Virus record (IMG/VR): IMGVR_UViG_3300047323_000428
Location: 21,208 to 85,207 of that record
Origin: a virus
Lineage: Duplodnaviria; Heunggongvirae; Uroviricota; Caudoviricetes
Strand: one strand, 5' to 3'
Length of the DNA: 64,000 nucleotides
Numbering within the stretch: position 1 is the first letter of the stretch; every line of letters begins with the position of its first letter. A program made the translations under genes and the position numbers. Shown piece by piece: positions 181-63,198 of the stretch. The notes beneath the pieces are model-generated. The model did not search any database and had not been told where the DNA came from. It saw only the letters and a program-made list of their open reading frames with translations.

Positions 181-198
181 CAGTCATCTTTGACTGTT
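181..198 (-). promoter_or_regulatory. Copy of the dispersed phage dyad motif, abbreviated PDM in later entries (CAGTCATCTTTGACTGTT; a perfect AACAGTCA/TGACTGTT palindrome)
   Basis: Matches the PDM consensus TAGTCAGTTTTGACTGTT. Lies between the scaffold stop and the capsid-like gene start. A CCTAGG site is nearby at about 123-128. Confidence 0.7.
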
Positions 199-219
199 CG
201 ACCAGGCCCGGAAACCGGA

Positions 220-1140
220 TCAGTTGAGCTGGATATTCAGCCCCTTCAGACCCGAGGCGATGCGCGAAACGCCCTTCGCTTCCGCGTCGGTCTTCGTCAC
301 ACCTGCCTGCTTGCCGGCGGGCACCGTCGAGGCGGAACCTGCACCAGCCTTCACCTTGCTTTTCAGCAGGAAGTCCTTCTCCGGGTCCGCGTCGATGATC
401 TTCTTGAGCGCTTCGTCAAACGACAGCGTATTGCCCGAGGCGTCGACGATCGGGGTGCGGCTCGCGGCCGACTTCGGCTTGTCGTAGCCGACGACCTTGC
501 CGTCGACCAGTTCGAAGTGCTCGCCGTAGATCACGCGGGCCTTGGCCGGGGTGAGCGCCAGTTCGTTGTTGATGAACTGCGAGGCGGAGAACTGCGTGCC
601 GATCGTGAGTTCGTTGATCTGGCCGTCGCGCGCCGAGAGGGCGCTCTGCAATTCGGCGATGCGGCTTTCGAGCGACTGCTTTTCCGTCGAGTGCTCGGCG
701 GCCATGCGTTCTTTCAGACGGCTCCACTCGCCCTTCGCTTCGAGCGCGGCGGTTTCGGCGTCGGACTTTTCCTTCAGCAGCGCGCGCACCGCTTCCGGGT
801 CGATGCCTTCGAAGCGCTTCAGTTGCTCGCGTGCTTCGGCCAGCGCAGTCTCCGACTCCTGCAGCTTCGCCTTCTTCTGCATCACGTCCTTGAGCAGCTT
901 CGCCTCTTCGTCGGTCGGCTTCTTCTCGCCGGAGGGCTCGCCCTTCTTGGCAGCTTCGGCGGCCGCAGCTTCTTCGGCCTTCTTCGTTTCGGCTTCAGCA
1001 GCGGCAGCCTTGGCTGCAGCGTCTTGCTCAGCCAGTGCGGCTGCGATCTTGTCGGCGCCACCGGACTTCGGGCCATCTTCGGCGGCCGCGTCCATGTAGC
1101 GTTGGGAGATCAGCAGTTTGCGCAGCAGTGCGTTCGGCAT
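220..1140 (-). CDS. Head scaffolding protein (Ala/Glu/Lys-rich coiled coil)
   Basis: 306-aa low-complexity alpha-helical protein located between the portal gene and the capsid-like gene. ATG start with an AAGGAA ribosome-binding site. Confidence 0.6.
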   Translation of the reverse strand: MPNALLRKLLISQRYMDAAAEDGPKSGGADKIAAALAEQDAAAKAAAAEAETKKAEEAAAAEAAKKGEPSGEKKPTDEEAKLLKDVMQKKAKLQESETALAEAREQLKRFEGIDPEAVRALLKEKSDAETAALEAKGEWSRLKERMAAEHSTEKQSLESRIAELQSALSARDGQINELTIGTQFSASQFINNELALTPAKARVIYGEHFELVDGKVVGYDKPKSAASRTPIVDASGNTLSFDEALKKIIDADPEKDFLLKSKVKAGAGSASTVPAGKQAGVTKTDAEAKGVSRIASGLKGLNIQLN

Positions 1141-1218
1141 TTCGTGTGTTCCTTTTCGACCAGTCTCTAGGTCAGTGGGTGTGAAAATGCCGCCCTATTC
1201 TCTTGGGCGGCGGGTTCT

Positions 1219-2856
1219 TTAACCTTCCGATTGGGTCTTGAGCGATTCGGTGCCCACGGCCCGGTCGGAGAGCTTTTGGGTTTGCTGCGCGGCCGTGTTG
1301 TTCGGGTCGAGCAGCGGGTCGATCGGCGGCCAGTCCTTCAAGTCGTTCAGCATCTTCGCCTTGATATCCTTGGCGAGCTGCGGGAAGAGCTTGTCGATGA
1401 CCGCCTTCATCTGTTCCTGACGCATCGAGTCGGGCGCGTCGATGAGCATCAGGCGCGCGGCGATATCGAATTCGTCGTAGAGGCCGCGCACATCGAAGTT
1501 GTCCGGGTAGGAAACAAGCGCGTCGGAACCGTCTGCCACCGTCTCGCCGTTCCAGAGCGCGACGAGCCGGGCAATCCTGTTCTCGATCACCTGCAACGAA
1601 TCAGCCTTGGCTGCCAACAGAGCGTTCACTCGCTCGAAGTCGTAGGCCTTGGCGACACCCGAAGAGTTGTCGATGCCGAGCGAGTTGTCCTGTTTGGTTC
1701 GCTCGCCTGCGAGGCCGCAGGTGTGGTAAATCTCGTTGATGATCTTGTGGATCACGTCGAGAATCATTTGGGCCTGTTTAGGGTCCGGGGAAATGTAGGC
1801 CGGCGCGCTGCCGCCCTCGCCGTCGTAGAGAAAGACTCGCTTGGTGCCCATCTCCAGCATCTTCGTGTAGTTGTCCTCGCCCGGCAGCATGTTCTGTGCG
1901 GGCATCGCCAACTGCGAAAACGTCTGGTCCTGGATGATCGCGTCGAGGTTCGAGAGGTAGTTCGCCACCGCCCGGTCCAGATAGGCAATGTCGTCGATCA
2001 TCGACGGCGCCACATACAGCTCGTCGTTGATGACGTGATCGCCCAGCACCACCGGCACTTCGCCCAGGTTGTGAGCGCCCTGGCCGATGCGCACGACCTT
2101 CTGCTTCTTGCCCTTGCCTTGCAGCTCGAACAATTGCCAGTCCGTCTTCGTCCAGAGCCGGAAGCGCTGCAGGATTTCGCCGGAGGAGTTCAGCGGATCG
2201 GCGTCATCGCGCGCGCTTTCCTGCAGGAGAATCCAGTTCAGGCCGCCCTTGTCGTCGTAGCTGTAGTCGAGCACCTGATCGGGGCCGACGATGTAGGCAT
2301 ACGTCTGCACGCCGAGCGCCTTCTCTTCGGCGCGGTTGGCGGGCAGCGTCTCGGCCGGCGGGTTGTCGACCACGATAGCGACACGGCCGGCGCGGGAGGT
2401 GCGCGAGGCAATCTGACGCGAGAGGTCGTTGATCGACAGACCGTTGCGCGTGGCCTTCGTCCAGAACTGCTTGACCGACTCGGGCGCGTCATCGAGGTTG
2501 CGCGTGATAGCCTGCTTGAAGAGGTATTTCGTCAGCAGGTCGACCACTTCCTTCGTGTGATTGAAGCGGTAGGCGCGCGCAAGCCGGTCGGAGAACTCGC
2601 GGTCGCCTTCCTTGATGTAGCGAAACACGTTCGTTGCAAACCACTCGCGGCCGCCCTCGTAGGTTTCCTCGATGAACTGCCAGTGGTTGATCGTGTTTTC
2701 GTATTCCGGGTGACGGCGCTCCACCAACGCGCGCAGCTTCTTCTGCTCGTCGTCAGCGGGCGTGAGTCCCATCGCGGAGGCGGAATCGACCTGTTTGGGG
2801 TCGAGCGTGGCCTGCTCTCCGGTCTGAAACTGCTTGGTGTTGAGGTTCGTTGGCAT
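1219..2856 (-). CDS. Portal (head-to-tail connector) protein
   Basis: 545 aa, positioned between the terminase large subunit and the scaffold gene. This size and position are typical of a portal protein. Confidence 0.6.
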   Translation of the reverse strand: MPTNLNTKQFQTGEQATLDPKQVDSASAMGLTPADDEQKKLRALVERRHPEYENTINHWQFIEETYEGGREWFATNVFRYIKEGDREFSDRLARAYRFNHTKEVVDLLTKYLFKQAITRNLDDAPESVKQFWTKATRNGLSINDLSRQIASRTSRAGRVAIVVDNPPAETLPANRAEEKALGVQTYAYIVGPDQVLDYSYDDKGGLNWILLQESARDDADPLNSSGEILQRFRLWTKTDWQLFELQGKGKKQKVVRIGQGAHNLGEVPVVLGDHVINDELYVAPSMIDDIAYLDRAVANYLSNLDAIIQDQTFSQLAMPAQNMLPGEDNYTKMLEMGTKRVFLYDGEGGSAPAYISPDPKQAQMILDVIHKIINEIYHTCGLAGERTKQDNSLGIDNSSGVAKAYDFERVNALLAAKADSLQVIENRIARLVALWNGETVADGSDALVSYPDNFDVRGLYDEFDIAARLMLIDAPDSMRQEQMKAVIDKLFPQLAKDIKAKMLNDLKDWPPIDPLLDPNNTAAQQTQKLSDRAVGTESLKTQSEG

Positions 2857-2868
2857 AGTGGCGATTAT

Positions 2869-2886
2869 TAGTCAATATTGACTGTT
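2869..2886 (-). promoter_or_regulatory. PDM copy (TAGTCAATATTGACTGTT)
   Basis: Lies 12 nt upstream of the portal ATG. On the minus strand it reads AACAGTCAATATTGACTA followed by ATAAT. Confidence 0.8.
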
Positions 2887-4874: not shown

Positions 4875-4937
4875 ATTTCGGAGAGAGAAACTTGCTTCGT
4901 AGGGCTCCACTGTAGCGGCCGCTTTAGCCGTTGTCAA

Positions 4938-4955
4938 CAGTCAATCTTGACTATT
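4938..4955 (-). promoter_or_regulatory. PDM copy (CAGTCAATCTTGACTATT)
   Basis: Overlaps the stop codon of gene 4941-5336. It lies upstream of the terminator and of the terminase small subunit gene. Confidence 0.65.
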
Positions 4956-8157: not shown

Positions 8158-8676
8158 TCAGGCCGCCTGCTTGTTGATGCCGACCCACCAGGCCATCGCA
8201 GCCGGGTTGTCCTGCCAGAGCTGGCAGAGCCCGTGCGCGGTGCGCGTGGTGAAGTCCTCTTCGTCCACGTTCTCGCCCATCAGCTCGAAGTGCCAGTGAA
8301 TGGCGTGCAGCACCTCGTGGATGAAGGTGTCGGCGAGGTTCTGCGCGTTCTGGTCCGGGGCGAGCCGGATCGACTGGGAGATCGGGTTCATGTGGCCGAA
8401 AGCCATCATGGCCTGGCTGTCACCGCTCTCCTGCACCGACACGGAAAAGCGGAAGTTGCCGATCTTGAGCGACTTCGGGATGCCGTGATACGGGTCGAAG
8501 GGCTTGGCCTTCACTCCGCGTCGAGTAGCACCACCAGCAGCGCGAGCGCCAGGAGCTCGTCGTCGTTCAGACACACCAGCCTGTTCGGCTTCGCTGAAAG
8601 CCACGCCGCGAGGGCGATCGACGCTCCCACCAGCATCGCCACGATGATCGTCACTGTGTTCATTTCGCATAGTCAT
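8158..8676 (-). CDS. HExxH zinc-metallopeptidase-like protein
   Basis: FIHEVLHAIHWHFE motif (HExxH followed by an extra His). 172 aa. Confidence 0.4.
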   Translation of the reverse strand: MTMRNEHSDDHRGDAGGSVDRPRGVAFSEAEQAGVSERRRAPGARAAGGATRRGVKAKPFDPYHGIPKSLKIGNFRFSVSVQESGDSQAMMAFGHMNPISQSIRLAPDQNAQNLADTFIHEVLHAIHWHFELMGENVDEEDFTTRTAHGLCQLWQDNPAAMAWWVGINKQAA

Positions 8677-8687
8677 TTTTGAGTGTT
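8670..8687 (-). promoter_or_regulatory. Degenerate PDM copy (TAGTCATTTTTGAGTGTT) overlapping the start codon of 8158-8676
   Basis: Two mismatches to the consensus. The intergenic gap here is only 18 nt. Confidence 0.45.
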
Positions 8688-10811: not shown

Positions 10812-10833
10812 AGGTTTCAATGGCTTAGTTGGA

Positions 10834-10851
10834 TAGTCAGTTTTGACTGTT
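10834..10851 (-). promoter_or_regulatory. PDM consensus copy (TAGTCAGTTTTGACTGTT) in a divergent intergenic region
   Basis: 22 nt upstream of the ParB-like ATG on the minus strand and 30 nt upstream of the plus-strand helicase ATG. Confidence 0.85.
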
Positions 10852-10880
10852 GGCGCTTATACTACGCCTTACACAACAGG

Positions 10881-12452: not shown

Positions 12453-12493
12453 ATCGTGGTATTTTCACACTCACTATTGACTATGGAGCGCAA

Positions 12494-12679
12494 ATGAAGC
12501 ACGCCCTGTTTCTGAACCTCATGATCCTCGCGCTCATCCTCGCCGCTCTCTGGATCACTGGCCGCGGAGAAGTGCTGATTGCGCTTGTTATGCTGCGCGA
12601 TATGCCTTTCGGGTTGCTCATGCAGCAGCCGCCCGAAGAGGATGGTGATCCGAAGATCGGCTTCACCGCCGAAGTCTGA
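12494..12679 (+). CDS. Small membrane protein (61 aa)
   Basis: ATG with a GGAG ribosome-binding site; the transmembrane segment is LFLNLMILALILAALWITG. Confidence 0.45.
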   Translation: MKHALFLNLMILALILAALWITGRGEVLIALVMLRDMPFGLLMQQPPEEDGDPKIGFTAEV

Positions 12680-12819: not shown

Positions 12820-12854
12820 CGTGCAGTTATTATTTTTCACGTAAGGAATACAAC

Positions 12855-14412: not shown

Positions 14413-14445
14413 TAGTCAGTTTTGAGTGTTTCACGTGAAACACTC
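14413..14445 (-). promoter_or_regulatory. PDM variant (TAGTCAGTTTTGAGTGTT) fused to a 22-bp perfect palindrome GAGTGTTTCACGTGAAACACTC
   Basis: The palindrome spans 14424-14445 around a CACGTG core, 10 nt upstream of the 14402 start codon. An identical palindrome occurs at 15104-15125. Confidence 0.8.
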
Positions 14446-15103: not shown

Positions 15104-15138
15104 GAGTGTTTCACGTGAAACACTCATCATTGACTGTT
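15104..15138 (-). promoter_or_regulatory. Second copy of the palindrome GAGTGTTTCACGTGAAACACTC plus a half-PDM (CATCATTGACTGTT)
   Basis: Perfect 22-bp palindrome at 15104-15125, about 30 nt upstream of the 15075 start codon. Confidence 0.8.
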
Positions 15139-17809: not shown

Positions 17810-17827
17810 TAGTCAATGGTGACTGTT
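17810..17827 (-). promoter_or_regulatory. PDM copy (TAGTCAATGGTGACTGTT) about 600 nt upstream of the nearest minus-strand CDS
   Basis: The motif matches, but the long non-coding stretch downstream of it contains iteron units U3 and U4 and the G-tract. Confidence 0.65.
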
Positions 17828-22789: not shown

Positions 22790-22807
22790 TAATCAGTTTT
22801 GACTGTT
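22790..22807 (-). promoter_or_regulatory. PDM copy (TAATCAGTTTTGACTGTT)
   Basis: Lies 70 nt upstream of the 22719 start in a 340-bp non-coding gap. Confidence 0.75.
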
Positions 22808-27595: not shown

Positions 27596-27613
27596 GAGTC
27601 AATTTTGACTGTT
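27596..27613 (-). promoter_or_regulatory. PDM copy (GAGTCAATTTTGACTGTT)
   Basis: 32 nt upstream of the 27564 start. Confidence 0.8.
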
Positions 27614-28310: not shown

Positions 28311-28361
28311 TAGTCAATTGTGACAAACGAAGCGTGGATGATAAAGTCAGTTTTGACTGTT
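28311..28361 (-). promoter_or_regulatory. Tandem PDM pair: a degenerate copy TAGTCAATTGTGACAAAC (28311-28328) and a consensus-like copy AAGTCAGTTTTGACTGTT (28344-28361)
   Basis: Both lie upstream of the 28283 start. Confidence 0.7.
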
Positions 28362-33521: not shown

Positions 33522-33539
33522 TAGTCAGTTTTGACTGTT
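33522..33539 (-). promoter_or_regulatory. PDM consensus copy (TAGTCAGTTTTGACTGTT)
   Basis: 27 nt upstream of the 33494 start. Confidence 0.85.
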
Positions 33540-37677: not shown

Positions 37678-37711
37678 CTAGGGAACACAATCACTTTTGA
37701 CTGTTCCCTAG
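37678..37711 (-). promoter_or_regulatory. PDM copy (AATCACTTTTGACTGTT) embedded in a 10-bp perfect inverted repeat CTAGGGAACA ... TGTTCCCTAG
   Basis: The inverted-repeat arms are at 37678-37687 and 37702-37711, about 70 nt upstream of the 37616 start. The same architecture occurs at 63162-63198. Confidence 0.8.
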
Positions 37712-39825: not shown

Positions 39826-39843
39826 TAGTCAGTTTTGACTATT
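39826..39843 (-). promoter_or_regulatory. PDM copy (TAGTCAGTTTTGACTATT), with TATAAT immediately downstream on the minus strand
   Basis: On the minus strand it reads AATAGTCAAAACTGACTATAAT. Lies 77 nt upstream of thyX. Confidence 0.8.
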
Positions 39844-41169: not shown

Positions 41170-41187
41170 TAGTCACTTTTGACTGTT
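41170..41187 (-). promoter_or_regulatory. PDM copy (TAGTCACTTTTGACTGTT)
   Basis: Immediately after the nrdA stop and 42 nt upstream of the 41127 start. Confidence 0.8.
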
Positions 41188-43505: not shown

Positions 43506-43523
43506 AAGTCAATTTTGACTGTT
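43506..43523 (-). promoter_or_regulatory. PDM copy (AAGTCAATTTTGACTGTT)
   Basis: 38 nt upstream of nrdA. On the minus strand it continues ...GACTTATTATTCC. Confidence 0.8.
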
Positions 43524-44045: not shown

Positions 44046-44058
44046 ATTGCTCTCCGGG

Positions 44059-44101
44059 GTCAAAACTGACTACGTGCAGATTATAGTCAGTTTTGACTGT
44101 T
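44059..44101. promoter_or_regulatory. Inverted pair of PDM copies: GTCAAAACTGACTA (44059-44072, opposite orientation) and TAGTCAGTTTTGACTGTT (44084-44101)
   Basis: This is the only copy in the window in the reverse orientation. The two copies together form a 43-bp palindromic arrangement between the RuvC-like gene and gene 43542-44045. Confidence 0.75.
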
Positions 44102-49504: not shown

Positions 49505-50040
49505 GCTCTGCCGCTCTTGATTGCGTTAATCAAGCCGCGCGTTACTCCATAAATTGCAGCGATGGCATCTGACGTCTCGCCCTTCGCTACCCTCTCTCGA
49601 ATCTCTAGCACCTGTGCCGGTGTCAGCTTCACTGCACGATTGCGCTCACCTCGATTGCTCCTGCCGTGCGCGATCTTGTCCTCCTCGTTCCCGCTGCGCG
49701 TGTCCCATCGCAAGTTGCCGAGAACGTTGTTAGTCGGATTCCCGTCGCGGTGGCAGCCGTGCCACTCAAGGCAGTCGCCAGGACGTGGCCCCACAAACGC
49801 TTCCAGCACCAGCGTGTGAACCTGATAGGTCTTACTTCTTCCCTCTTTGGCAAGAGAGACGGTCAAGTGACCGGACTCTGCCGGGCCCGGCGCCAAGATT
49901 CGCTCTGGCTGCTCGCGGTAACGGTCGCCAACCGGATGACGAATCAGCAGCATGCGGCGCAGGCTCTTGACTCGACCGAGATTGGAGACTTGATAAAGCC
50001 CCTCATATCCCGCTATGTCTTTCCACTTTTCGCCACTCAT
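49489..50040 (-). CDS. HNH homing endonuclease (NUMOD4 plus HNH)
   Basis: IAGYEGLYQVSNLGRVKS (NUMOD4) and an HNH core ...WHGCHRDGNPTNN. It stands alone between the SleB-like gene and sbcD. Confidence 0.8.
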   Translation of the reverse strand: MSGEKWKDIAGYEGLYQVSNLGRVKSLRRMLLIRHPVGDRYREQPERILAPGPAESGHLTVSLAKEGRSKTYQVHTLVLEAFVGPRPGDCLEWHGCHRDGNPTNNVLGNLRWDTRSGNEEDKIAHGRSNRGERNRAVKLTPAQVLEIRERVAKGETSDAIAAIYGVTRGLINAIKSGRAWGWL

Positions 50041-50050
50041 TTTTGACTGT
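50034..50050 (-). promoter_or_regulatory. Degenerate PDM-like word (ACTCATTTTTGACTGTC) overlapping the HNH start codon
   Basis: The intergenic gap is 14 nt. The motif appears to be interrupted or abutted by the HNH gene. Confidence 0.4.
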
Positions 50051-50054
50051 CAGT

Positions 50055-50498: not shown

Positions 50499-50516
50499 TA
50501 GTCAGGGTTGACTGTT
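50499..50516 (-). promoter_or_regulatory. PDM copy (TAGTCAGGGTTGACTGTT)
   Basis: 42 nt upstream of the SleB-like start. On the minus strand a TATAAT lies 10 nt further downstream (50486-50491). Confidence 0.75.
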
Positions 50517-52235: not shown

Positions 52236-52270
52236 CCTGACTAAGAAGTGATGCTCTAATCTTAGTCAGG
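52236..52270. promoter_or_regulatory. 11-bp perfect inverted repeat CCTGACTAAGA-N13-TCTTAGTCAGG containing the PDM half-sites TGACTA/TAGTCA
   Basis: Lies between the RecA-like gene stop and the 52227 start. No T-run follows the stem. Confidence 0.6.
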
Positions 52271-52285
52271 AGCGACTAATTGCCG

Positions 52286-53323: not shown

Positions 53324-53341
53324 TACTCAATTTTGACTGTT
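53324..53341 (-). promoter_or_regulatory. PDM copy (TACTCAATTTTGACTGTT) directly abutting the RecA-like ATG
   Basis: Zero spacing to the start codon. It also overlaps the last codon of the FEN gene. Confidence 0.7.
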
Positions 53342-55275: not shown

Positions 55276-55365
55276 CTTTGTTCCTTTTTCAGTTTGGTAG
55301 TAGAAAGTTGCCTTTTGGACTTCGCGGTGGAATATCACCGCTTCATCGTTTCAGCATGCTAATTA

Positions 55366-55383
55366 TAGTCAGCTTTGACTATT
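55366..55383 (-). promoter_or_regulatory. PDM copy (TAGTCAGCTTTGACTATT), with TATAAT immediately downstream on the minus strand
   Basis: 87 nt upstream of the SSB gene. Confidence 0.8.
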
Positions 55384-56470: not shown

Positions 56471-56505
56471 GTTGTTTGCTCCTCGATTTGTGAGACGTTC
56501 TCTAA

Positions 56506-56534
56506 CTGACGCACATTTTAGCGATGTGCGTCAG
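56506..56534 (-). other. Perfect 11-bp stem hairpin in the 5' leader (CTGACGCACAT-tttagcg-ATGTGCGTCAG)
   Basis: Lies between the PDM copy at 56542 and the ribosome-binding site and ATG of gene 55400-56470. No T-run follows it. Confidence 0.6.
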
Positions 56535-56541
56535 GGTTGCA

Positions 56542-56559
56542 TACTCAATTTTGACTGTT
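56542..56559 (-). promoter_or_regulatory. PDM copy (TACTCAATTTTGACTGTT)
   Basis: Immediately after the DnaE stop and 70 nt upstream of the 56470 start. Confidence 0.75.
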
Positions 56560-56565: not shown

Positions 56566-59500
56566 TTACGACAGAATCTCCGCCGTCTTCTCGAACACCG
56601 CCGCGAGCACGTCAGCCTTCGCCGGGTCAAAGAGGACTTGCTGCGCGTTGATACCGCACACAACGCTGGCGTCCAGCGTCTTGTCGAAGATCACCTTGCC
56701 AGCAAGCTCGGCCGTGCCGCCCTTGATGCCCGGCACAAAGTGCTTGATCGTGGCCGAGCCGAGCGCGACGATCACCGCCGGCTTAATGAGCTCCAACTCG
56801 CGCTGCAGGAAGCCCTTGCAGTTGTTGATCTGGCCGTTGGAGAGGAACTTGTCGTTCTTCTTCGCCTTGACGAGCGACGTGTAGTAGCCCTCTGCCGGAT
56901 TCAGCCCCGCCGCCTTGATCGCTTCCTTGATGAAATCCGCGGCGTCGCCTTCGAGCATCTTGTCGGCCTTCTCCTCCTGCCAGCTTGGGCAGTCGGACAC
57001 CACCATGAACTTCACCGTGTGCTTGGCGCGCACCGTCGGGTGAGGCTGTCCCGCGAGGTCGCAGCTTTCGCAGCCCTTGTATTCCTGCACGAGCGAAATC
57101 ACCTTCGCCCGCAAGAACTTCTCCTTCAGGTCGGTCGTGCGATCGGCCTTCACCGCGTCGATAATCAGCCCGCCCATGAGTTCGGTCTGGTCACGCCGGC
57201 GGTCCAGGTGTCGCGCGGGCAACGATCCGGGTTTAATCGGCACGAGCGCACCGACCTTGTCCAGCACATCACGCACCTTCGAATTGACTTTCGAGCCCTT
57301 CGCCTCTGTGATCTTGAGGAAGTGCTCCTCGTCACGGAAGGCGCCGCCCTCGAGATTGCGCAGCTCCACCATCCGCTTGGCCGTGTTCTCGGAGATCCCC
57401 TTCACTGCCGAGAATGGCGCGAGCAGGTGGTTGTCGTCGGGGATGGTGAAGCGCTCGCGCGAGAGGTTGATATCGGGCGGCAGCACCTCGATCCCGTATT
57501 CACGCGCTTCCTCGACGAGCTTGGGCAACTTGTCCTCGTCCACGATCGACATACAGGCAGCGAAGTATTCCGCCGGGTAGCGCACCCGCACCCAGAGCGA
57601 CCAGTAGCTAATGATCGAATACTCGACCGCGTGGCTCTTGTTAAAACCGTAGCCTGCAAAGGCCTCGATCTTGTCGAAGATGCGACCCGCGACCTCTTCG
57701 TTCATGCCGGACGTGGAGTGACAGCCATCGACCCACTTCTGTCGCATTTCGGCCATCTTGTCCTTGTCCTTCTTGCCCATCGCTTTCCGCAGGTGGTCCG
57801 CTTCCGCCTTCGTGAAACCTGCGAGGTCGACCGCGACCTGCATGACCTGTTCCTGGTAGACGATGACGCCATAGGTGTCCTTGAGCGCCGCCTCCATGTT
57901 CGGGTGGTCGTAGCTGATCGACTTCACGCCCTGCTTGATCTGGATGAAGTCGTCCATCAGGCCCGAGTCCATTGGGCCCGGTCGATAGAGCGCGGTGGCC
58001 GCTGTCACGTCATCGAACGTAAGCGGCCCACCCATCGCCAGATTCCTGAGCAGCGCCTTCATGCCGCCTGAGTCGAACTGGAACACACCCGTCGTGTCGC
58101 CCGCGCCAAATGCCTGCATGACGTCCGATTCACCCAGCGGAATGTCGAGGTAGTTGACCTTCACCCCGTGCCGCTCTTCGATGTAGCTCTTGGCGATCTC
58201 CAGCACATCGAGCGTGGAGAGCCCCAGAATGTCCATCTTGACCAAGCCCCAGTCCTCGACGACCCGCTTGTCCCAGTTCACCACCGGCGACTCGCCACGC
58301 GTTTCAACGACCGCACGGTTCACAAGCGGCTCGCCCGCGACCACGATACCCGCTGCGTGCTGGCCGAAGTTGCGCATGGCGCCTTCGAGCTTCAGGGCGT
58401 GGCCCCACACCTCCGGGTGCTCGTCGCGGAACTTCTCCAGCTCGGGCACGGCTTTGGCCGATTCCGTGAGCGTGAGGGAATTGCCGTGCTCTTTGGGCAC
58501 GAGCTTGGTAGCGGTCAGTTCGAGCGGCTGCATGCCATGCACGCGGCCGGTGTCGCGTAGCGCGGAGGCAGAAGCGAGCGTCGAATAGTTGGAGATGCCG
58601 GCGACGCGATCCTTGCCGTATTTGGCGGTCAGGTATTCGATCACCAGATGGCGCTTGCTTGACATGAAATCGAGGTCGGCGTCGGGCAAGTCCAGACGCT
58701 CGGGGTTGATGAAGCGCTCGAACAGGAGATTGAACCGGATTGGATCCACATCGGTGATGCCAAGCAGGTAAGCGACGAGCGAGCCGCCCACCGATCCGCG
58801 GCCTGGGCCGACGATGATGCCGTTTTCCTTCGCCCACATCACGAGGTCTTCCACGAGCAGGAAGTAGCCCGCGAAGCCCATTTTCTTGAGCACCGACAAC
58901 TCGTATTGGAGTCGCTCCTTGTAGACGGGCATGTCGGCCGCCGTCGGCATGTAACCGAGCACGGCCACCGAGAAGCGCCGCTTCCAGCCTTCGAGACACT
59001 TCTTGCCGAGCGCCATGAACTCGTTTTCGGCCATCTGCGGCAGCGACACCGGCTGCTTCTTGAACTCGTAGCCACAGGCGGCCGCGATCTTCTCGACGTT
59101 CTGCAGGCCGGCGAGCCAGAGCTTCGGTTCGTTCACGCCATAGAACTTGACCGCGCGAGCGTGCGCGGCCTTCATCTTGTCGACCAGGTGCTTCGGTTCG
59201 TGAAAGCCGAAGTCCTTCACGTGCTGAATCGAGCGGAACTTCGTGTCCATCTTGTCGCCGTCGGCGATCACCTTCAGCACCGCGAGCGTGTCAGCGTCCT
59301 CGTTCTCCCGATAGTAGGTCGGGAACGTGATGATCGGCTGAATGTCGAGGATGCGCGCAATCGTCAGCGCCTTTGCGTTGAGCGTGTCGTAGAGCGGCGT
59401 GTCGATCGGCACGAGCTCCACGAAGAAGTCGTCGGCGAAGAAGTCCTTGAGCTTTCGCGCGTGCGCTTCGGCTTGCGGGTGATGGAACAGGCCGTTGTAG

Positions 59501-59931
59501 TCGCCGGTCGTGACGACCACGCCCTCGAGCTCCAGCACGTCGTTCAGGCCCACGCGCGAGACATAGTAGAAATACTCGGGCGAATTGGCCTTCGACAGCA
59601 GCTTGATAAGGCTCGACACCCCGCGCTCGTCCTTCGCGTAGACCTTGAGCGTCACCATCGGGTTCGGCTTGTCTGCGTGCGTGTCGCCCTTCTTGGGCTT
59701 GCGGTGCGTCGGATCGTCGACCACGCGCAACTCGCAGCCGATGATCGCCTTGATGCCGACTTTCTTCGCACGATTGGCGAAGTCGACCATCGCGTGCAGG
59801 CTCATCGCGTCGGTGAGCGCAACCGACTCGTAGCCCAGCTCCTTCGCCTTTGTGACGAGTTGGTCGACCTGAAGCATCGAGCGGCCGATGGAGAAGTCGC
59901 TCCTTACGCCGAGCGCGTGCCCGAGATTCAT
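56566..59931 (-). CDS. dnaE: DnaE-type (Pol III alpha-like, PHP domain) DNA polymerase with a C-terminal UDG-like (family 4/5 fold) domain
   Basis: PHP domain at the N-terminus, polymerase core, and a (HhH)2 motif GISENTAKRMVELR. The last ~200 aa align with the family-4 uracil-DNA glycosylase fold (…CKGFLQRELELIKPAVIVALGSATIKHF…), but the GEAPG and GrPFvG motifs are replaced by SDCPSW and DKMLEG. Confidence 0.8.
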   Translation of the reverse strand: MNLGHALGVRSDFSIGRSMLQVDQLVTKAKELGYESVALTDAMSLHAMVDFANRAKKVGIKAIIGCELRVVDDPTHRKPKKGDTHADKPNPMVTLKVYAKDERGVSSLIKLLSKANSPEYFYYVSRVGLNDVLELEGVVVTTGDYNGLFHHPQAEAHARKLKDFFADDFFVELVPIDTPLYDTLNAKALTIARILDIQPIITFPTYYRENEDADTLAVLKVIADGDKMDTKFRSIQHVKDFGFHEPKHLVDKMKAAHARAVKFYGVNEPKLWLAGLQNVEKIAAACGYEFKKQPVSLPQMAENEFMALGKKCLEGWKRRFSVAVLGYMPTAADMPVYKERLQYELSVLKKMGFAGYFLLVEDLVMWAKENGIIVGPGRGSVGGSLVAYLLGITDVDPIRFNLLFERFINPERLDLPDADLDFMSSKRHLVIEYLTAKYGKDRVAGISNYSTLASASALRDTGRVHGMQPLELTATKLVPKEHGNSLTLTESAKAVPELEKFRDEHPEVWGHALKLEGAMRNFGQHAAGIVVAGEPLVNRAVVETRGESPVVNWDKRVVEDWGLVKMDILGLSTLDVLEIAKSYIEERHGVKVNYLDIPLGESDVMQAFGAGDTTGVFQFDSGGMKALLRNLAMGGPLTFDDVTAATALYRPGPMDSGLMDDFIQIKQGVKSISYDHPNMEAALKDTYGVIVYQEQVMQVAVDLAGFTKAEADHLRKAMGKKDKDKMAEMRQKWVDGCHSTSGMNEEVAGRIFDKIEAFAGYGFNKSHAVEYSIISYWSLWVRVRYPAEYFAACMSIVDEDKLPKLVEEAREYGIEVLPPDINLSRERFTIPDDNHLLAPFSAVKGISENTAKRMVELRNLEGGAFRDEEHFLKITEAKGSKVNSKVRDVLDKVGALVPIKPGSLPARHLDRRRDQTELMGGLIIDAVKADRTTDLKEKFLRAKVISLVQEYKGCESCDLAGQPHPTVRAKHTVKFMVVSDCPSWQEEKADKMLEGDAADFIKEAIKAAGLNPAEGYYTSLVKAKKNDKFLSNGQINNCKGFLQRELELIKPAVIVALGSATIKHFVPGIKGGTAELAGKVIFDKTLDASVVCGINAQQVLFDPAKADVLAAVFEKTAEILS

Positions 59932-61197: not shown

Positions 61198-61845
61198 TTA
61201 CAGTGTGTCGATCAATTCACGCACTTCCCTGCCGGCTGCCGTGATCTCTTTGGCGCGTTCGGGCATGGTCATGCGCAAAAACTTGCAGATGAAGGAGACG
61301 TTCACGCCCGCGAAGCTCCTCATGTTCTCGCCGACGCTGCGTGCGTATTCGGCGTGAGCCTGATGCTTGGCGATTTCCTCGAGCAGCGCCTTCGGCGGCT
61401 GTGCGATCCACTCGACGATGAGCCCGGCGATCGGCGACAGGCGCTCGACGACCCGCTCCATTGCGTCGGCGGCCTCGCGCTGCTCCATCCACTGCTCCGG
61501 CGTGATCGCCTGGCAGGCAATGCGCTCGACCGCGTGCATGTCGTCATCGGTGGTCAGCTCCTCGAAGCTGCGCACGCCGTTGGTGATGCGCTCCTCCTCG
61601 ACGTCGCCCGCAACACGGTTCAGCTTGTTGTAGGCGCTGCGCGCGAAGTAGGTATTGAATTCGAACCCTTTTGTCGGGTCGAATTTCTGGTGGGCTTCGA
61701 GAAAGGCGATGCGAACATCGCCAAACACGTCGTCATAGTCCAATGCGGCACCCATCCCCTGGAGTCGTCCGTAGCACTTGCGTGCGATCGTGTGGACGAA
61801 CCCCAGGTTGCCCGCATAGCACTCGGAAACGTCGGCGCTATACAT
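61198..61845 (-). CDS. Phage-encoded sigma-70-family protein (recognisable region 2 only)
   Basis: YDDVFGDVRIAFLEAHQKFDPTKGFEFNTYFARSAYNKL aligns with sigma70 region 2.1-2.3 ([37 protein letters not shown]). No obvious region 4 is present. Confidence 0.6.
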   Translation of the reverse strand: MYSADVSECYAGNLGFVHTIARKCYGRLQGMGAALDYDDVFGDVRIAFLEAHQKFDPTKGFEFNTYFARSAYNKLNRVAGDVEEERITNGVRSFEELTTDDDMHAVERIACQAITPEQWMEQREAADAMERVVERLSPIAGLIVEWIAQPPKALLEEIAKHQAHAEYARSVGENMRSFAGVNVSFICKFLRMTMPERAKEITAAGREVRELIDTL

Positions 61846-61857: not shown

Positions 61858-61875
61858 TAGTCAACTTTGACTGTT
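61858..61875 (-). promoter_or_regulatory. PDM copy (TAGTCAACTTTGACTGTT), 13 nt upstream of the sigma-factor ATG
   Basis: On the minus strand it reads AACAGTCAAAGTTGACTA, followed by GAGAGGAGCCAA and then ATG. Only the ribosome-binding site fits between the motif and the start codon. Confidence 0.8.
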
Positions 61876-61882
61876 ACGCCGA

Positions 61883-63085
61883 TTAGCCGAAGATGCGCTG
61901 AGCCAAGCCGTCGACAACCTCCCGGTCGACTTTGGAGAGCTTGTTGATGAAGGAGAGTTGAATCCCCTGGCGCCACGAACCGCGCTTCACGCCGATCTTT
62001 GCCGCGTAAATCAGCGTGCGAGGCGAAATGACGTCGCTGATCTTGGCGCCGTCATACGATTCACGAACAAGCGCGGCGAAGTCCACGAGCTTGTCGGCGT
62101 CGTCAGCGCGCAGCCCGCAGCGCTTTTGCAGAATCAGGCTCTCGAACTTCTTCGCCATGTATTGCTTGTGAACCACCATGCCGAAGCGGTCGTAGTTGGC
62201 GCTGTTCTGAAGCGACGTGCCCTGATACAGACCGGTTTCGTCGCCCGAGCCGTTCGTGTTGCCCGTTGCGGCGAAGCGGAAGTTCGGGTGCGGCTTGATG
62301 ATGCGGTTTTCGGCGTCCGCTTCCTTGATGACGAGCGGCTTGCCTTCGAGCACGGCCTGATAGACCGACAGCACGCTCGGCAGCGCAAAGTCGTATTCGT
62401 CAGCGGCGTAGACCCAGCCGTTTTTCATGGCGAGCGGCAACGGTCCCAGCTCGAACTCGGTTTGGCCGTTCTTCACAACCCACTGGCCCACGATGTGGCT
62501 TTCTTCCGTGTTGACCGTATGCTGCACGCGGATCATGGCGCGGCCGGTGCGAGCGCAGATTTGCTCGTAAAGCTCCGACTTGCCCGAGCCCTTGTGGCCC
62601 CACACGTAAGTCGGAATGTTGAGCTCCAGCGCCAAGATGACGTTCTTGAGTTCGTCCACGTCGTAGACATAATCGTCCGAGACGGTCGGCACCAGGTCCG
62701 GGTTTTCCGGGTTGGTGATGACGCTGATGGGGATCGCTTCGCCCTTAGCCGAGAGCGCAGCCTTAATCTTGCCCAGGTTGAAGGTTTCGTGGAAGGCGGC
62801 GCGGGTTGGCGTGCCCTTCGGAATCAGTGCCGACACGCTTGCGAGCGCAGCACCCGTGCCCGCCATCTCGACGGCGGCCGGCGCAGGCGCTTCGGCTTCA
62901 GCGGCCTTTGCCGCGCGCTTCTTGTCCAGTTGCTCTTGCGCCAGCGCCGAGAGAATCGACGCACCGGGGAACTTCGTCTGATACTCGCTGATGGACAGTT
63001 CCGGGTGGTCTTGCTTGAGGTGCGACTGGATCACGTGGACTTGCGCGCCGCAGATTTTGCATTCGATCTTGTTCGTGTCGGCCAT
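61883..63085 (-). CDS. MoxR-family AAA+ ATPase (CobS/CbbQ/NorQ-like) with an N-terminal zinc-finger-like segment
   Basis: Walker A WGHKGSGKSE and Walker B AADEYDF. The N-terminus carries CKICGAQVHVIQSHLKQDH. Confidence 0.75.
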   Translation of the reverse strand: MADTNKIECKICGAQVHVIQSHLKQDHPELSISEYQTKFPGASILSALAQEQLDKKRAAKAAEAEAPAPAAVEMAGTGAALASVSALIPKGTPTRAAFHETFNLGKIKAALSAKGEAIPISVITNPENPDLVPTVSDDYVYDVDELKNVILALELNIPTYVWGHKGSGKSELYEQICARTGRAMIRVQHTVNTEESHIVGQWVVKNGQTEFELGPLPLAMKNGWVYAADEYDFALPSVLSVYQAVLEGKPLVIKEADAENRIIKPHPNFRFAATGNTNGSGDETGLYQGTSLQNSANYDRFGMVVHKQYMAKKFESLILQKRCGLRADDADKLVDFAALVRESYDGAKISDVISPRTLIYAAKIGVKRGSWRQGIQLSFINKLSKVDREVVDGLAQRIFG

Positions 63086-63161
63086 TTTTCTTCTCCAAGA
63101 GTGTGTGAGTCGTTACTGATTGCAGCAACGTTGCTGCGATAAGTGAATGATAAAGATGAGC

Positions 63162-63198
63162 GGTAGGGAACGCTAGTCACTTTTGACTGTTCCCTACC
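63162..63198 (-). promoter_or_regulatory. PDM copy (TAGTCACTTTTGACTGTT) embedded in a 10-bp perfect inverted repeat GGTAGGGAAC ... GTTCCCTACC
   Basis: Same architecture as 37678-37711. Lies between the vWA gene and the MoxR gene start. Confidence 0.8.

What the first reader, a model, noticed from the sequence alone, without database searches (positions are those of the whole stretch)
181..63198. An 18-bp dyad motif (TAGTCAGTTTTGACTGTT) in about 27 same-orientation copies marks nearly every minus-strand gene block
This is a candidate phage-specific promoter or operator.

What the sequence shows:
- I found copies at or near 181, 2869, 4938, 8670, 10834, 14413, 15125 (half), 17810, 22790, 27596, 28311, 28344, 31418, 33522, 37689, 39826, 41170, 43506, 44059 (inverted), 44084, 50034 (degenerate), 50499, 53324, 55366, 56542, 61858 and 63174.
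- All except one are in the same orientation. On the coding (minus) strand they read AACAGTCAAAACTGACTA.
- All sit in intergenic gaps just after one gene stop and 0 to 120 nt before the next start codon. Spacings include 0 nt at recA, 11 nt at the portal gene and 13 nt at the sigma-factor gene.
- The core is a 5-bp inverted repeat, AGTCA-N4..5-TGACT.
- Some copies continue into TATAAT on the minus strand (39826, 44084, 55366).

How I interpret it:
- The density, orientation bias and placement fit a phage-specific promoter, possibly read by the phage sigma-like protein at 61198-61845.
- Alternatively, the short dyad could form a hairpin recognised on extruded DNA or on RNA: a binding site for a dimeric activator or repressor, or an RNA-level translational operator.
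- The two copies that abut a start codon with zero spacing argue for the operator reading, since a standard promoter would need some leader.
Basis: partly seen in the sequence, partly recalled or inferred. Interest (0 to 1): 0.78.

Follow-up and report, generated by a model that had tools for sequence, protein, structure and literature searches.

The report
Dispersed operator dyad of a phage-plasmid
The repeated 18-base motif is real and is most likely the binding site (operator) of a two-subunit phage regulator, sitting on or next to ordinary host-type promoters in front of most gene blocks of a plasmid-like phage; this would give a whole, poorly understood group of phage-plasmids a testable control switch.

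Summary
All 27 listed copies exist (23 hits at ≤3 mismatches against 0.02 expected). They share one orientation and lie almost only in the ~10% of the window outside ORFs.

The motif is not a self-contained promoter. Its core, AGTCA-N4-TGACT, is conserved across about 50 related metagenomic phages, Rhizobium phage RHEph10 (about 40 copies) and, as AGTAA-N4-TTACT, Acinetobacter and SSU5-type phage-plasmids.

Across the family, the dyad sits at four discrete positions relative to host sigma70-like -35/-10 boxes:
- inside the spacer (TGAC|TATAAT);
- over the -35 box;
- just upstream of the -35 box (centre -41.5);
- just downstream of the start site.

The two arms vary independently, with no compensatory changes, and the hairpin is weak. 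This argues against an RNA or extruded-DNA reading.

The best candidate binder is a conserved XRE-type helix-turn-helix protein of about 140 aa. Its gene lies about 1.9 kb beyond the window's right end, transcribed divergently from the lytic genes, with six more dyads in its control region.

I read the motif as a genome-wide operator set, mainly repressive and possibly activating at -41.5. It is comparable to P1 C1 operators or mycobacteriophage stoperators. Binding and start sites are inferred, not shown.

The parts
63174..63191 (-). Dyad copy (1 mismatch) between CobT and CobS, directly upstream of a -35/-10 pair (register G2, dyad centre about -41.5)
   Evidence: -10 TATCAT at offset +36 (63147-63152). 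The orthologous junction keeps the dyad in 26 relatives. An outer inverted repeat encloses it.
61858..61875 (-). Dyad copy (2 mismatches) 12 nt before the ATG of the sigma-like gene
   Evidence: No -10-like hexamer at any of the four registers. Absent at this junction in the close relative L135.
56542..56559 (-). Dyad copy (right arm TGAGT) after DnaE, register G2
   Evidence: TAAAAT at +36 (56515-56520). In an alignment of 25 orthologous junctions, the dyad, the -10, the Shine-Dalgarno site and the ATG are the conserved blocks.
55366..55383 (-). Dyad copy overlapping a perfect -10 (TGAC|TATAAT, register G1) upstream of the gp32-like SSB gene
   Evidence: TATAAT at 55362-55367. The same arrangement is conserved across the family.
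53324..53341 (-). Dyad copy (TGAGT) 6 nt before the conserved recA start (53317)
   Evidence: No recognisable -10. A dyad at this junction occurs only in the closest clade, so it was gained recently.
52263..52280 (-).
   Evidence: (TAAGAT at +13).
50499..50516 (-). Dyad copy with TATAAT 8 nt downstream (register G4, dyad over the -35 position)
   Evidence: TATAAT at +22.
50034..50051 (-). Degenerate copy (4 mismatches) at the start of an HNH/NUMOD4 endonuclease gene
   Evidence: (TATAAG at -15).
44084..44101 (-). Perfect copy overlapping TATAAT (G1)
44055..44072 (+). Inverted partner copy 11 nt from the copy at 44084. Together they form a larger palindrome.
43506..43523 (-). Dyad copy with TATTAT at +14 (G1) upstream of the ribonucleotide reductase large subunit gene
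41170..41187 (-). Dyad copy between the RNR large and small subunit genes, with no -10 at a standard register
39826..39843 (-). Dyad copy overlapping TATAAT (G1) upstream of thyX
37688..37705 (-). Dyad copy (3 mismatches) in a G2-like arrangement. It looks like a paralogue of the CobT-CobS junction, with the same outer inverted repeat (ctagggAAC...gttcccta).
33522..33539 (-). Perfect copy 27 nt before a start codon
31419..31436 (-). Dyad copy with a -10 (TATCAT) 15 nt upstream of the core (register G3, dyad just downstream of the start site)
28344..28361 (-). Dyad copy inside a TTGCAT-N17/18-TATCAT promoter-like pair
28311..28328 (-). Degenerate copy (TGTCACAATTGACT) 33 nt (about 3 helical turns) downstream of the copy at 28344
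27596..27613 (-). Dyad copy 31 nt before a start codon, with no -10 at a standard register
22790..22807 (-). Dyad copy in the spacer of TTGCGG-N17-TACGAT (G1)
17810..17827 (-). Dyad copy in the spacer of TTGACC-N17-TATGAT (G1)
15121..15138 (-).
14413..14430 (-). Dyad copy (left arm ACTCA) 10 nt before a short ORF
12468..12485 (+). Extra copy inside the plus-strand gene block, reading ACTCACTATTGACT|ATG on the plus strand. Its orientation follows the local gene direction.
10834..10851 (-). Perfect copy in the divergent region between the ParB_N-domain gene (minus strand) and the helicase gene (plus strand). Overlapping -10-like boxes lie on both strands.
8670..8687 (-). Dyad copy (left arm ACTCA) 5 nt before the likely start of a membrane-protein-like ORF
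4936..4955 (.). Near-perfect 20-nt palindrome AATAGTCAAGATTGACTGTT followed by TTGACA-N17-TACAGT, upstream of the small-terminase-like gene
2869..2886 (-). Dyad copy in TTGCAT-N16-TAATAAT (G1), 12 nt before the portal ATG
181..198 (-). Palindromic copy AACAGTCAAAGATGACTGTT with TATTGT at +36 (G2)

Best explanation
**What it is.** The 18-mer is the local form of a 14-bp dyad operator, AGT(C/A)A-N4-T(G/T)ACT. A dimeric, phage-encoded DNA-binding protein most likely binds it.

**Where it sits.** The sites lie on or beside host sigma70-type promoters in front of most gene blocks of a roughly 110-kb SSU5/RHEph10-like phage-plasmid. There are four fixed positions:
- G1: in the promoter spacer, abutting the -10 box (dyad at -25 to -12).
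- G4: over the -35 position.
- G3: just downstream of the start site (about +5 to +18).
- G2: immediately upstream of the -35 box (centre -41.5).

**How it probably works.**
- Binding at G1, G4 and G3 should occlude RNA polymerase, so the protein would act as a genome-wide repressor of lytic genes, probably in the plasmid-prophage state.
- Binding at G2 could repress or, as for class II activators, stimulate transcription.
- About half of the window's copies have no recognisable -10 box. These may act as roadblocks or sit on weak promoters.

**Who probably binds it.** The most likely binder is a conserved XRE/Cro-CI-type HTH protein of about 140 aa. Its gene lies about 1.9 kb beyond the window's right end. 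It is transcribed divergently from a 74-aa gene plus cobT, next to Rep and ParA genes.

**What is shown and what is inferred.**
- Shown: the motif statistics, its placement, its family-wide conservation, the four registers relative to -10/-35-like boxes, the lack of arm covariation, and its co-occurrence and clustering with the HTH gene.
- Inferred: that these boxes are functional promoters, that the HTH protein is the binder, and the sign of regulation.
For: **The motif is real, bounded and intergenic.**
- It is far above chance and confined to 18 nt.
- 26 of 27 copies lie wholly or almost wholly outside ORFs (at most 7 of the 18 bases overlap one) in a ~90% ORF window.

**The core dyad is conserved family-wide while its flanks drift.**
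- It occurs in 53 DnaE-linked IMG/VR loci.
- RHEph10 has 40 copies against 0.42 expected.
- pABTJ2 carries the dispersed form AGTAAGCGCTTACT(ATAAT).
- SSU5 and pJN2-26 have a few copies, including one at the orthologous CobT-CobS junction.
- Phage nickie has none: 0 strict copies, and relaxed-pattern counts at chance level.

**Phylogenetic footprint.** At the post-DnaE junction of 25 relatives, the conserved blocks are the dyad, the -10, the Shine-Dalgarno site and the ATG.

**Quantised registers.**
- Family-wide, -10-like hexamers peak at offsets +13/+14 (48 sites), +22 (13), +36 (44) and -17 to -15 (21), against 0.35 expected per offset.
- TTGnnn peaks at the matching -35 positions (-10, +13, -39).
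- In the window alone, 14 of 29 sites have a strict -10 at one of these registers: 1.5 per offset against 0.09 elsewhere.

**Half-sites vary independently.**
- RHEph10 odds ratios are 0.49 and 0. It has 15 A·G mismatches and 8 A·C mismatches and no compensation.
- The window has 6 uncompensated mismatches and 0 compensated ones.

**Candidate binder.**
- The HTH_3 protein gene lies divergent to the lytic operon, beside Rep_3 and ParA.
- It is present in all 24 family loci that reach that far, and in RHEph10 gp041, but not in nickie. It is also in pABTJ2 and pJN2-26, among 544 plasmid records with a match.
- 14 of 22 members hit HTH_3, and the putative recognition helix KPNIITMIKQG is nearly invariant.
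- The divergent control region carries 3 dyads in close relatives.
- In the window's own genome there are 6 dyads in 700 nt.
- Across 59 HTH-encoding loci there are 152 strict dyads in 647 kb. 52 of the 59 have at least one dyad within 700 nt upstream of the HTH gene.

**Lifestyle.**
- The relatives RHEph10 and pLM21S1 are described as plasmid-like prophages (PMC4447125, PMC7969092).
- The window also carries MazEF and ParB_N-domain genes.
Against: - No transcription start sites or binding data exist. The -10/-35 assignments are consensus matches only.
- A stringent generic sigma70 scan finds no strong minus-strand promoter in 44-64 kb. The -35 boxes in this window are therefore weak. That would also fit activator- or phage-sigma-dependent promoters.
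- About half of the window's copies lack a -10 at any register.
- The near-uniform orientation (AAC on the left, TA on the right) is only partly explained by overlap with promoter boxes.
- The family-wide site counts include orthologous sites, so they are not independent.
- The HTH gene lies outside the window, and only its first ~14 codons are seen in the window's own genome.
- The HTH gene's co-occurrence with the dyad is confounded by shared ancestry.
- The sigma-like gene shows a similar presence/absence pattern among the high-copy lineages.
- pJN2-26 has the HTH homologue, but the ≤1-mismatch dyads found in the sampled ~40 kb do not fall in the HTH–70-aa intergenic region, by my reading of coordinates; this was not tested directly.
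- A covarying outer hairpin encloses the dyad at the CobT-CobS junction. The operator model does not predict this.
Confidence: 0.6

Rival explanations
1. Phage-specific promoter. The 18-mer itself, or the dyad plus the adjacent TA, is recognised by host RNA polymerase carrying the phage sigma-like protein (61198-61845), and transcripts start at or just after it.
For: - The motif is strongly oriented, intergenic and upstream of genes.
- The -35 boxes in this window are weak.
- 17 of 25 copies end in TA, as the start of a -10 box would.
- The high-copy lineages (this clade, RHEph10, pABTJ2) all encode the sigma-like protein. Nickie lacks both.
Against: - The dyad occupies four different registers relative to good -10 boxes, including one downstream of the -10.
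- There is no conserved partner element at a fixed distance.
- A symmetric 5-4-5 dyad is not how sigma factors read DNA (established knowledge of sigma70-family recognition).
- SSU5 and pJN2-26 keep copies without a sigma gene.
- The protein matches only sigma region 2, weakly.
Confidence: 0.12
2. Primarily an activator site. The dyad-binding dimer switches on middle or late promoters that have poor -35 boxes, in class II fashion at -41.5. The other registers are secondary.
For: - 44 family sites have the dyad ending exactly at the -35 box, with its centre at -41.5.
- The 5-4-5 layout is that of FNR-type sites (recalled knowledge).
- The -35 boxes of the window's G2 sites are poor: TAGCGT and TATGCA.
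Against: - More sites (G1, G4 and G3; 82 in the family) overlap the spacer, the -10, the -35 or the start site, where a bound dimer is expected to block polymerase.
- About 70% of G1 promoters have TTGnnn at 16-18 nt and near-perfect TATAAT. They look constitutively strong.
- No CRP/FNR-like protein was found among the ORFs scanned.
Confidence: 0.12
3. KorB-like global regulator. The ParB_N-domain protein encoded at 10164-10820, directly downstream of a perfect copy, binds the dyads as dispersed parS- or OB-like sites and silences promoters, as KorB does on plasmid RK2.
For: - There is a ParB_N-domain protein in the window and a weaker second one.
- A perfect dyad lies in its upstream divergent region.
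- The element is a phage-plasmid lineage with ParA and Rep genes.
Against: - The ParB-like gene is equally present in phage nickie (40% identity), which has no dyads.
- No HTH domain was detected in it by Pfam.
- The dyads cluster at the XRE gene, not at the ParB gene.
Confidence: 0.08
4. RNA-level element. The dyad is transcribed and forms a short stem-loop that acts as a translational operator, a processing site or a stabiliser between cistrons.
For: - Many copies lie a few nucleotides before a Shine-Dalgarno site and ATG, and in register G3 they would be at the 5' end of the mRNA.
- At the CobT-CobS junction, and at its paralogue at 37688, an outer inverted repeat with lineage-specific sequences encloses the dyad. 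16 of 26 junctions have z < -2.
Against: - There is no compensatory change between the arms in 40 RHEph10 sites or in the window.
- Bona fide copies at 56542, 53324, 14413 and 8670 fold at 0 to -0.4 kcal/mol, and the mean is -3.8.
- G1 and G2 copies lie upstream of their own predicted start sites.
- There is no Rfam match.
- There is no U-tract of the kind a terminator needs.
Confidence: 0.06

Closest known systems
Bacteriophage P1 C1 repressor and its dispersed operators (recalled knowledge)
   Same: - A plasmid prophage whose master repressor controls many operators scattered over the genome.
- Each operator overlaps a promoter at varying positions.
- The repressor gene sits in a separate immunity region.
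   Different: - P1 operators are asymmetric 17-bp sites read by a monomer, whereas here the site is a 5-4-5 dyad.
- The candidate binder here is an XRE-type HTH protein, and no similarity to C1 was tested.
- Density is higher here: about 30 copies in 64 kb.
Cluster A mycobacteriophage (L5) gp71 'stoperators' (recalled knowledge)
   Same: - Dozens of short sites in short intergenic gaps.
- Almost all are in one orientation relative to transcription.
- The immunity repressor binds them to silence the whole genome.
- Some sites are not associated with promoters.
   Different: - Stoperators are asymmetric 13-bp sites that block elongation.
- Here about half of the sites sit at defined registers on promoter-like boxes, and the core is symmetric.
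- The host phylum and the phage family are unrelated.
Lambdoid OR/OL operators with CI and Cro
   Same: - A Cro/CI-type HTH gene is transcribed divergently from a small first lytic gene (74 aa), with three dyads between them.
- One position, near -42, is compatible with activation, as at PRM.
   Different: - Lambdoid operators are confined to two control regions, whereas here they are spread over essentially every operon.
- The 74-aa protein has no detectable HTH domain.
KorA/KorB operators of IncP plasmid RK2 (recalled knowledge)
   Same: - Palindromic operators are distributed around a plasmid backbone.
- They fall into position classes relative to promoters, either overlapping the -10 or just upstream of the -35.
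- This gives global co-ordinate repression.
   Different: - The sequences and proteins are different.
- The ParB-like protein here is also present in a relative that lacks the dyad.

Membership tests
Self-contained phage promoter (T7-type or phage-sigma-specific) | One fixed register between the conserved element and the start site or -10, with no independent host-type boxes | tested here: not met
   There are four discrete registers relative to TAnnnT and TTGnnn boxes. The window-only analysis agrees.
Self-contained phage promoter (T7-type or phage-sigma-specific) | A cognate polymerase or sigma is encoded wherever the element occurs | tested here: inconclusive
   - The sigma-like gene is present in the window, RHEph10 and pABTJ2.
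- It is absent from SSU5 and pJN2-26, which keep a few copies.
- No phage RNA polymerase was seen in the 64 kb.
Operator of an XRE/Cro-CI-type dimeric regulator | Dyad-symmetric site of about 14-20 bp whose half-sites are conserved as sequence, not as pairing | tested here: met
   5-4-5 dyad. Arms vary independently.
Operator of an XRE/Cro-CI-type dimeric regulator | Sites overlap core promoter elements or the start site | tested here: met
   Registers G1, G3 and G4. Examples: TGAC|TATAAT at 55366, 44084 and 39826. These are promoter-like boxes only; start sites are not mapped.
Operator of an XRE/Cro-CI-type dimeric regulator | Several operators lie in the divergent control region of the regulator gene | tested here: met
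   - Three dyads in L131 and L133-L135.
- Six dyads in 700 nt of the window's own genome.
- 52 of 59 loci have at least one within 700 nt.
Operator of an XRE/Cro-CI-type dimeric regulator | The regulator binds the site | not testable with these tools
   Needs EMSA, footprinting or ChIP.
Mycobacteriophage-type stoperators | Many intergenic sites in one orientation relative to transcription | tested here: met
   The copy at 12469 follows the plus-strand block.
Mycobacteriophage-type stoperators | Asymmetric site; promoter-independent block of elongation | tested here: not met
   The core is symmetric. About half of the sites sit on promoter-like boxes. An elongation block is not testable here.
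RNA stem-loop (translational operator, processing site or terminator) | Base pairing maintained by compensatory changes, a stable stem, and (for a terminator) a U-tract | tested here: not met
   The exception is the outer stems at the CobT-CobS junction.
CRP/FNR-type class II activator site | Dyad centred at -41.5 and a CRP/FNR-family protein encoded | tested here: inconclusive
   The position requirement is met for 44 G2 sites. No such protein was found by Pfam among the ORFs scanned.
ParB/KorB-type parS or OB sites | Presence of the ParB-family protein tracks presence of the site | tested here: not met
   The ParB_N-domain protein is conserved in nickie, which has no dyads.

The most novel reading that the evidence does not exclude
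- One regulator-operator pair, the XRE-type HTH protein plus the AGT(C/A)A-N4-T(G/T)ACT dyad, is the ancestral lysis-lysogeny switch of the whole SSU5 / Acinetobacter-AB / RHEph10 phage-plasmid superfamily.
- In some lineages the operator has multiplied to 40 or more copies.
- The regulator works bifunctionally: it represses at three promoter registers and activates in class II fashion at -41.5.
- At some gene ends the same dyad also forms the tip of a covarying hairpin, so the operator would be read at both the DNA and RNA levels.
Probability: 0.2. Interest if true: 0.7.

Novelty: new member of a known kind. Interest (0 to 1): 0.5.

Why it matters
- Phage-plasmids of the SSU5, Acinetobacter AB and RHEph10 groups are widespread, and some carry antibiotic-resistance genes (PMC7969092, PMC9600943).
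- In the literature I could search, I found no description of how they keep their lytic genes silent.
- A conserved operator plus a named candidate repressor turns that question into simple experiments: gel shifts, ChIP-seq, reporter fusions and repressor knock-outs.
- It also gives a sequence signature for annotating promoters and operons in about a hundred uncultured relatives.
- The four quantised operator-promoter geometries offer a natural test set for how a single dimer can repress or activate depending on position.
- It is not a new principle. Dispersed operators of a master repressor are known from P1, mycobacteriophage L5 and plasmid RK2.

Tried and rejected
**Regulator searches inside the window**
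- Pfam and PHROG scans covered most of the window's ORFs (about 85), looking for a regulator.
- Only sigma region 2 and two ParB_N-domain proteins turned up, with no HTH.

**Presence/absence across genomes**
- Comparing RHEph10 with nickie gave sigma, RtcB and three small proteins as co-occurring.
- This was not decisive.

**Other repeated motifs checked**
- High-copy motifs in SSU5 (TACTCACTACAGTGG) and pJN2-26 (TATGCTGTCAGCGGT) looked like possible analogues.
- They proved to be clustered iterons around the Rep genes, not dispersed sites.

**Sequence and structure databases**
- The PDB sequence search for the HTH protein gave nothing useful, and the search for the sigma-like protein gave only weak region-2 hits.
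- The 74-aa 'Cro-position' protein has no Pfam domain.
- RNAalifold on the CobT-CobS junction recovered only the inner dyad, because the outer stems are out of register in a gapless alignment. Per-sequence folding was used instead.
- Rfam and tRNA scans found nothing.

**Scans that did not help**
- The degenerate motif scan of IMG/VR was swamped by chance hits.
- Megablast of the window against GenBank phages gave only a short RNR match.

**Ideas considered from memory and dropped**
- LexA box, IHF site, CcrM GANTC methylation site, sigma54 -24/-12 promoter and ECF -35/-10 promoter. In each case the sequence or spacing does not fit.

**Literature**
- Searches on RHEph10, SSU5 promoters, B1VFA/V1VFA and Acinetobacter phage-plasmid operators found no description of the motif.

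Full report

Yes.
- The 18-mer TAGTCAGTTTTGACTGTT has 23 matches at ≤3 mismatches, where shuffles give 0.02.
- The core AGTCA-N4-TGACT has 31 matches at ≤1 mismatch against 0.98 expected.
- At ≤4 mismatches, 25 copies read AACAGTCAAAACTGACTA on the minus strand. Only two match on the plus strand, and one of those is the same near-perfect palindrome as the minus-strand copy at 4938.
- A column-by-column information profile shows the signal is confined to 18 nt. No second conserved box lies at a fixed distance on either side.
- With a crude ORF map that covers ~90% of the window, 26 of the 27 copies fall wholly or almost wholly outside ORFs (at most 7 of the 18 bases overlap one). They usually sit 3-25 nt after a stop and 5-120 nt before the next start.

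- The spacer is always 4 nt.
- A plus-strand block exists at 10.6-14.3 kb, with a helicase (phrog_16). The copy at 12469 is oriented with it.
- The recA 'zero spacing' is 6 nt, because the start conserved in about 40 relatives is the second ATG at 53317.
- Two copies were missed, at 12469 and 52264.

**2. What genome is this?**

- The window encodes:
  - portal, large terminase, DnaE with a UDG-like tail, CobS/CobT, a gp32-like SSB, a 5'-3' exonuclease and RecA;
  - Mre11/Rad50-like proteins, class I RNR, ThyX, RtcB and a sigma region-2 protein;
  - two ParB_N-domain proteins and a MazEF pair.
- The nearest described phages, at only 37-57% amino-acid identity, are Rhizobium phage RHEph10, Pseudomonas phage nickie and Salmonella phage SSU5. 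Gene order is shared with them.
- RHEph10 and its relative pLM21S1 are described as plasmid-like prophages (PMC4447125, PMC7969092; see also PMC12509600).
- Relatives at 75-83% nucleotide identity exist in IMG/VR.
- A related element with the same 18-mer lies in a Paraburkholderia MAG. This suggests, but does not prove, a Burkholderiaceae host.

**3. Conservation elsewhere**

- A DnaE-based search returned 53 related loci.
- The exact 18-mer type occurs only in the closest ones, with DnaE identity ≥78%.
- The core AGTCA-N4-TGACT occurs throughout, with different flanks such as ATAAGTCA...TGACTTAT or ...TGACTATAAT.
- RHEph10 carries about 40 copies of GTCAGT(C/A)AATATT(G/T)A(C/T)TKAC, against 0.42 expected.
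- The Acinetobacter phage-plasmid pABTJ2 carries the dispersed form AGTAAGCGCTTACT, often followed by ATAAT.
- SSU5 and Klebsiella phage pJN2-26 have a few AGTAA-N4-TTACT copies, one of them at the orthologous CobT-CobS junction.
- Phage nickie has none: 0 strict copies, and relaxed-pattern counts at chance level.
- At the junction after DnaE, aligned across 25 relatives, the conserved blocks are the dyad, a TAnnAT box, the Shine-Dalgarno site and the ATG.
- Turnover also occurs. The recA-proximal copy exists only in the closest clade, and the copy before the sigma gene is missing in L135.

**4. Relation to promoter elements (the key result)**

I pooled 199 non-redundant family sites and asked where -10-like hexamers (TAnnnT, ≥4/6 to TATAAT) fall relative to the dyad. 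The expectation is 0.35 per offset. Four sharp peaks appear. The TTGnnn count is given only where output supplies a figure for that offset.

| Register | -10 offset from dyad | Sites | Dyad position | Matching TTGnnn (-35) peak |
|---|---|---|---|---|
| G1 | +13/+14 | 48 | -25 to -12; right arm fused to the box as TGAC\|TATAAT | offset -10 (17 sites, more at ±1) |
| G4 | +22 | 13 | over the -35 position | none (the dyad's left arm occupies the -35 position) |
| G2 | +36 | 44 | ends at the -35 box, centre -41.5 | offset +13 (27 sites) |
| G3 | -17 to -15 | 21 | about +5 to +18 | offset -39 (12 sites) |

- In the window alone, 14 of 29 sites have a strict -10 at one of these registers: 1.5 per offset against 0.09 at other offsets.
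- Window examples: TTGACC-N17-TATGAT at 17810, TTGCGG-N17-TACGAT at 22790, TGAC|TATAAT at 55366, 44084 and 39826, and TATCAT or TAAAAT at +36 for 63174 and 56542.

Caveats:
- The pooled sites include orthologues, so they are not independent.
- A stringent generic scan finds no strong minus-strand sigma70 promoter in 44-64 kb, so the -35 boxes in this window are weak.
- No start site is known.

An element that takes four registers relative to host-type boxes is not itself a core promoter element. It behaves like an operator.

**5. DNA site or hairpin?**

- In RHEph10 the arms tolerate G/A and C/A alternatives, but these do not pair up. The odds ratios are 0.49 and 0, with 15 A·G and 8 A·C mismatches among 40 sites.
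- In the window there are 6 uncompensated arm changes and none compensated.
- The isolated stem folds at about -4 kcal/mol. Four good copies fold at 0 to -0.4.
- Rfam finds nothing.
- There is no U-tract of the kind a terminator needs.

So the arms are read as sequence, as by a dimeric protein.

One unexplained exception exists. At the CobT-CobS junction, and at its apparent paralogue at 37688, an outer inverted repeat whose sequence differs between lineages encloses the dyad. 16 of 26 junctions have z < -2 with the dyad held fixed. At the post-DnaE junction a lineage-specific inverted repeat encloses the -10 box.

**6. Who binds?**

- Pfam finds no HTH regulator among the window ORFs scanned.
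- In the closest long relative, L135, the region just upstream of cobT holds Rep_3 and ParA genes. It also holds a ~140-aa HTH_3 protein transcribed divergently from the lytic genes, and a second 226-aa HTH_3 ORF.
- The 140-aa protein is present in the following; it is absent from nickie:
  - in the same position, all 24 family loci that reach that far, plus pABTJ2 and pJN2-26;
  - RHEph10 gp041, which lies just upstream of cobT but on the same strand as the lytic genes;
  - 544 plasmid records in all, mostly Klebsiella and Acinetobacter.
- 14 of 22 members hit HTH_3. The putative recognition helix (K-P-N-I/M-I/L-S/T-M-I-K/R-x-G) is nearly invariant, matching the invariant dyad core.
- The divergent control region carries three dyads in close relatives, one fused to TATAAT for the rightward operon. 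A leftward TATAAT lies beside another.
- A Logan contig encoding exactly the window's CobS extends the window by ~1.9 kb. It shows the 5' end of this HTH gene, then six dyads in 700 nt, a 74-aa gene in the 'Cro position', and cobT.
- Across 59 distinct HTH-encoding loci there are 152 strict dyads in 647 kb. 52 of the 59 have at least one dyad (≤1 mismatch) within 700 nt upstream of the HTH gene. By my arithmetic for equiprobable bases, chance would give about 0.07 per 700 nt.
- This is co-occurrence within one superfamily, not proof of binding.

**7. Mechanism I commit to**

- The dyads are operators of a dimeric phage regulator, most likely this XRE-type protein.
- Bound in the spacer abutting the -10, over the -35, or at +5 to +18, it should exclude RNA polymerase. 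That would silence almost every lytic operon at once, most plausibly while the element is maintained as a plasmid prophage.
- At -41.5 it may repress or activate.
- Copies without a recognisable promoter may act as roadblocks to read-through, which would also fit the uniform orientation.

Probabilities:
- About 0.6 for the operator model.
- About 0.5-0.55 that the 140-aa HTH protein is the binder.
- About 0.5 that the net role is repression.

**8. Comparison with known systems, and novelty**

- The element works like the dispersed C1 operators of plasmid-prophage P1, the gp71 stoperators of mycobacteriophage L5, and the KorA/KorB operators of RK2. Its control region is laid out like a lambdoid immunity region.
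- It is not a member of the P1 or L5 classes, because those sites are asymmetric.
- It does not fit the ParB/KorB class, because the ParB-like gene persists in a relative without dyads.
- I found no description of this motif or regulon in the searchable literature.
- I therefore rate it a new member of a known kind.
- Interest is moderate (0.5). It is not a new principle, but it gives a concrete, testable handle on lysogeny control in a large and clinically relevant phage-plasmid superfamily.

Noticed in passing
window 63153-63210 and 37670-37725; relatives in alignment A1: An outer inverted repeat with lineage-specific sequences (for example TAGGGAAC...GTTCCCTA here and GTCAGGA...TCCTGAC elsewhere) encloses the dyad at the CobT-CobS junction. 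It gives a 16-bp bulged hairpin of -23.7 kcal/mol in the window. 16 of 26 relatives have z < -2. The 37688 junction looks like a duplicate of it, including a second downstream hairpin (gcagcaacgttgctgc / gcgcaacgttgcgc).
   Followed up: partly
window about 56505-56540 (minus strand), post-DnaE junction: A lineage-specific inverted repeat (GACGCACA...TGTGCGTC here) brackets the predicted -10 box TAAAAT. Different sequences with the same symmetry appear in relatives.
   Followed up: no
window about 55300-55356 (minus strand), upstream of the gp32-like SSB gene: A leader conserved across the family starts about 7 nt after the TATAAT: GCTGAAACGA, then a hairpin whose sequence varies between lineages (GCGGTG...CACCGC here), then GAAGTCCAAAAGGC. 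It may be an autoregulatory mRNA operator like that of T4 gene 32. The real SSB start codon may lie downstream of the GTG at 55338.
   Followed up: no
window 10620-14310 (+ strand): A plus-strand gene block holds a helicase (phrog_16), small ORFs and a P-loop/GTP-binding-like ORF. It is convergent with and divergent from the minus-strand genes, and syntenic with the helicase/ParA block of RHEph10.
   Followed up: partly
window 19178-19807 (- strand): A MazE antitoxin plus MazF/PemK toxin pair sits in the lower-GC region (12-20 kb, GC 0.56-0.58). This is consistent with plasmid-type maintenance.
   Followed up: no
window 49489-50040 (- strand): A NUMOD4/HNH homing-endonuclease-like gene starts inside the most degenerate motif copy (50034). 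An insertion next to an operator may have eroded that copy.
   Followed up: no
window 9751-10161 (- strand): A small protein with a Tad2-like (Thoeris anti-defence 2) domain, E = 1e-5.
   Followed up: no
window 56566-59931 (- strand): The DnaE-type polymerase carries a C-terminal uracil-DNA-glycosylase-superfamily domain (residues 972-1070). The same is noted in the RHEph10 annotation. In pABTJ2 an HNH/NUMOD4 gene separates it from DnaE.
   Followed up: no
L186 (SSU5) about 32.4-34.4 kb and the opposite-strand cluster near 32.2-32.5 kb (reverse-complement coordinates 11.0-11.3 kb); L192 (pJN2-26), reverse-complement coordinates about 2.7-4.2 kb: Clustered direct repeats (TACTCACTACAGTGGATA in SSU5; TATGCTGTCAGCGGT in pJN2-26) flank the replication genes. 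They look like iterons. The SSU5 unit superficially resembles a T7 promoter core (ACTCACTA.AG).
   Followed up: partly
L135 2798-3478 (+) and homologues in L131, L133, L134, L157, L168 and L182: A second HTH_3 protein of 226 aa, with an uncharacterised C-terminal domain, lies between ParA and the 140-aa HTH gene. It occurs only in a subset of lineages. It could be a sensor or anti-repressor component of the switch.
   Followed up: no
window 44055-44101 and 28311-28361: Paired operators. Two copies in inverted orientation lie 11 nt apart (44055/44084). Two copies in direct orientation lie 33 nt apart, about three helical turns (28311/28344). This suggests cooperative binding.
   Followed up: no
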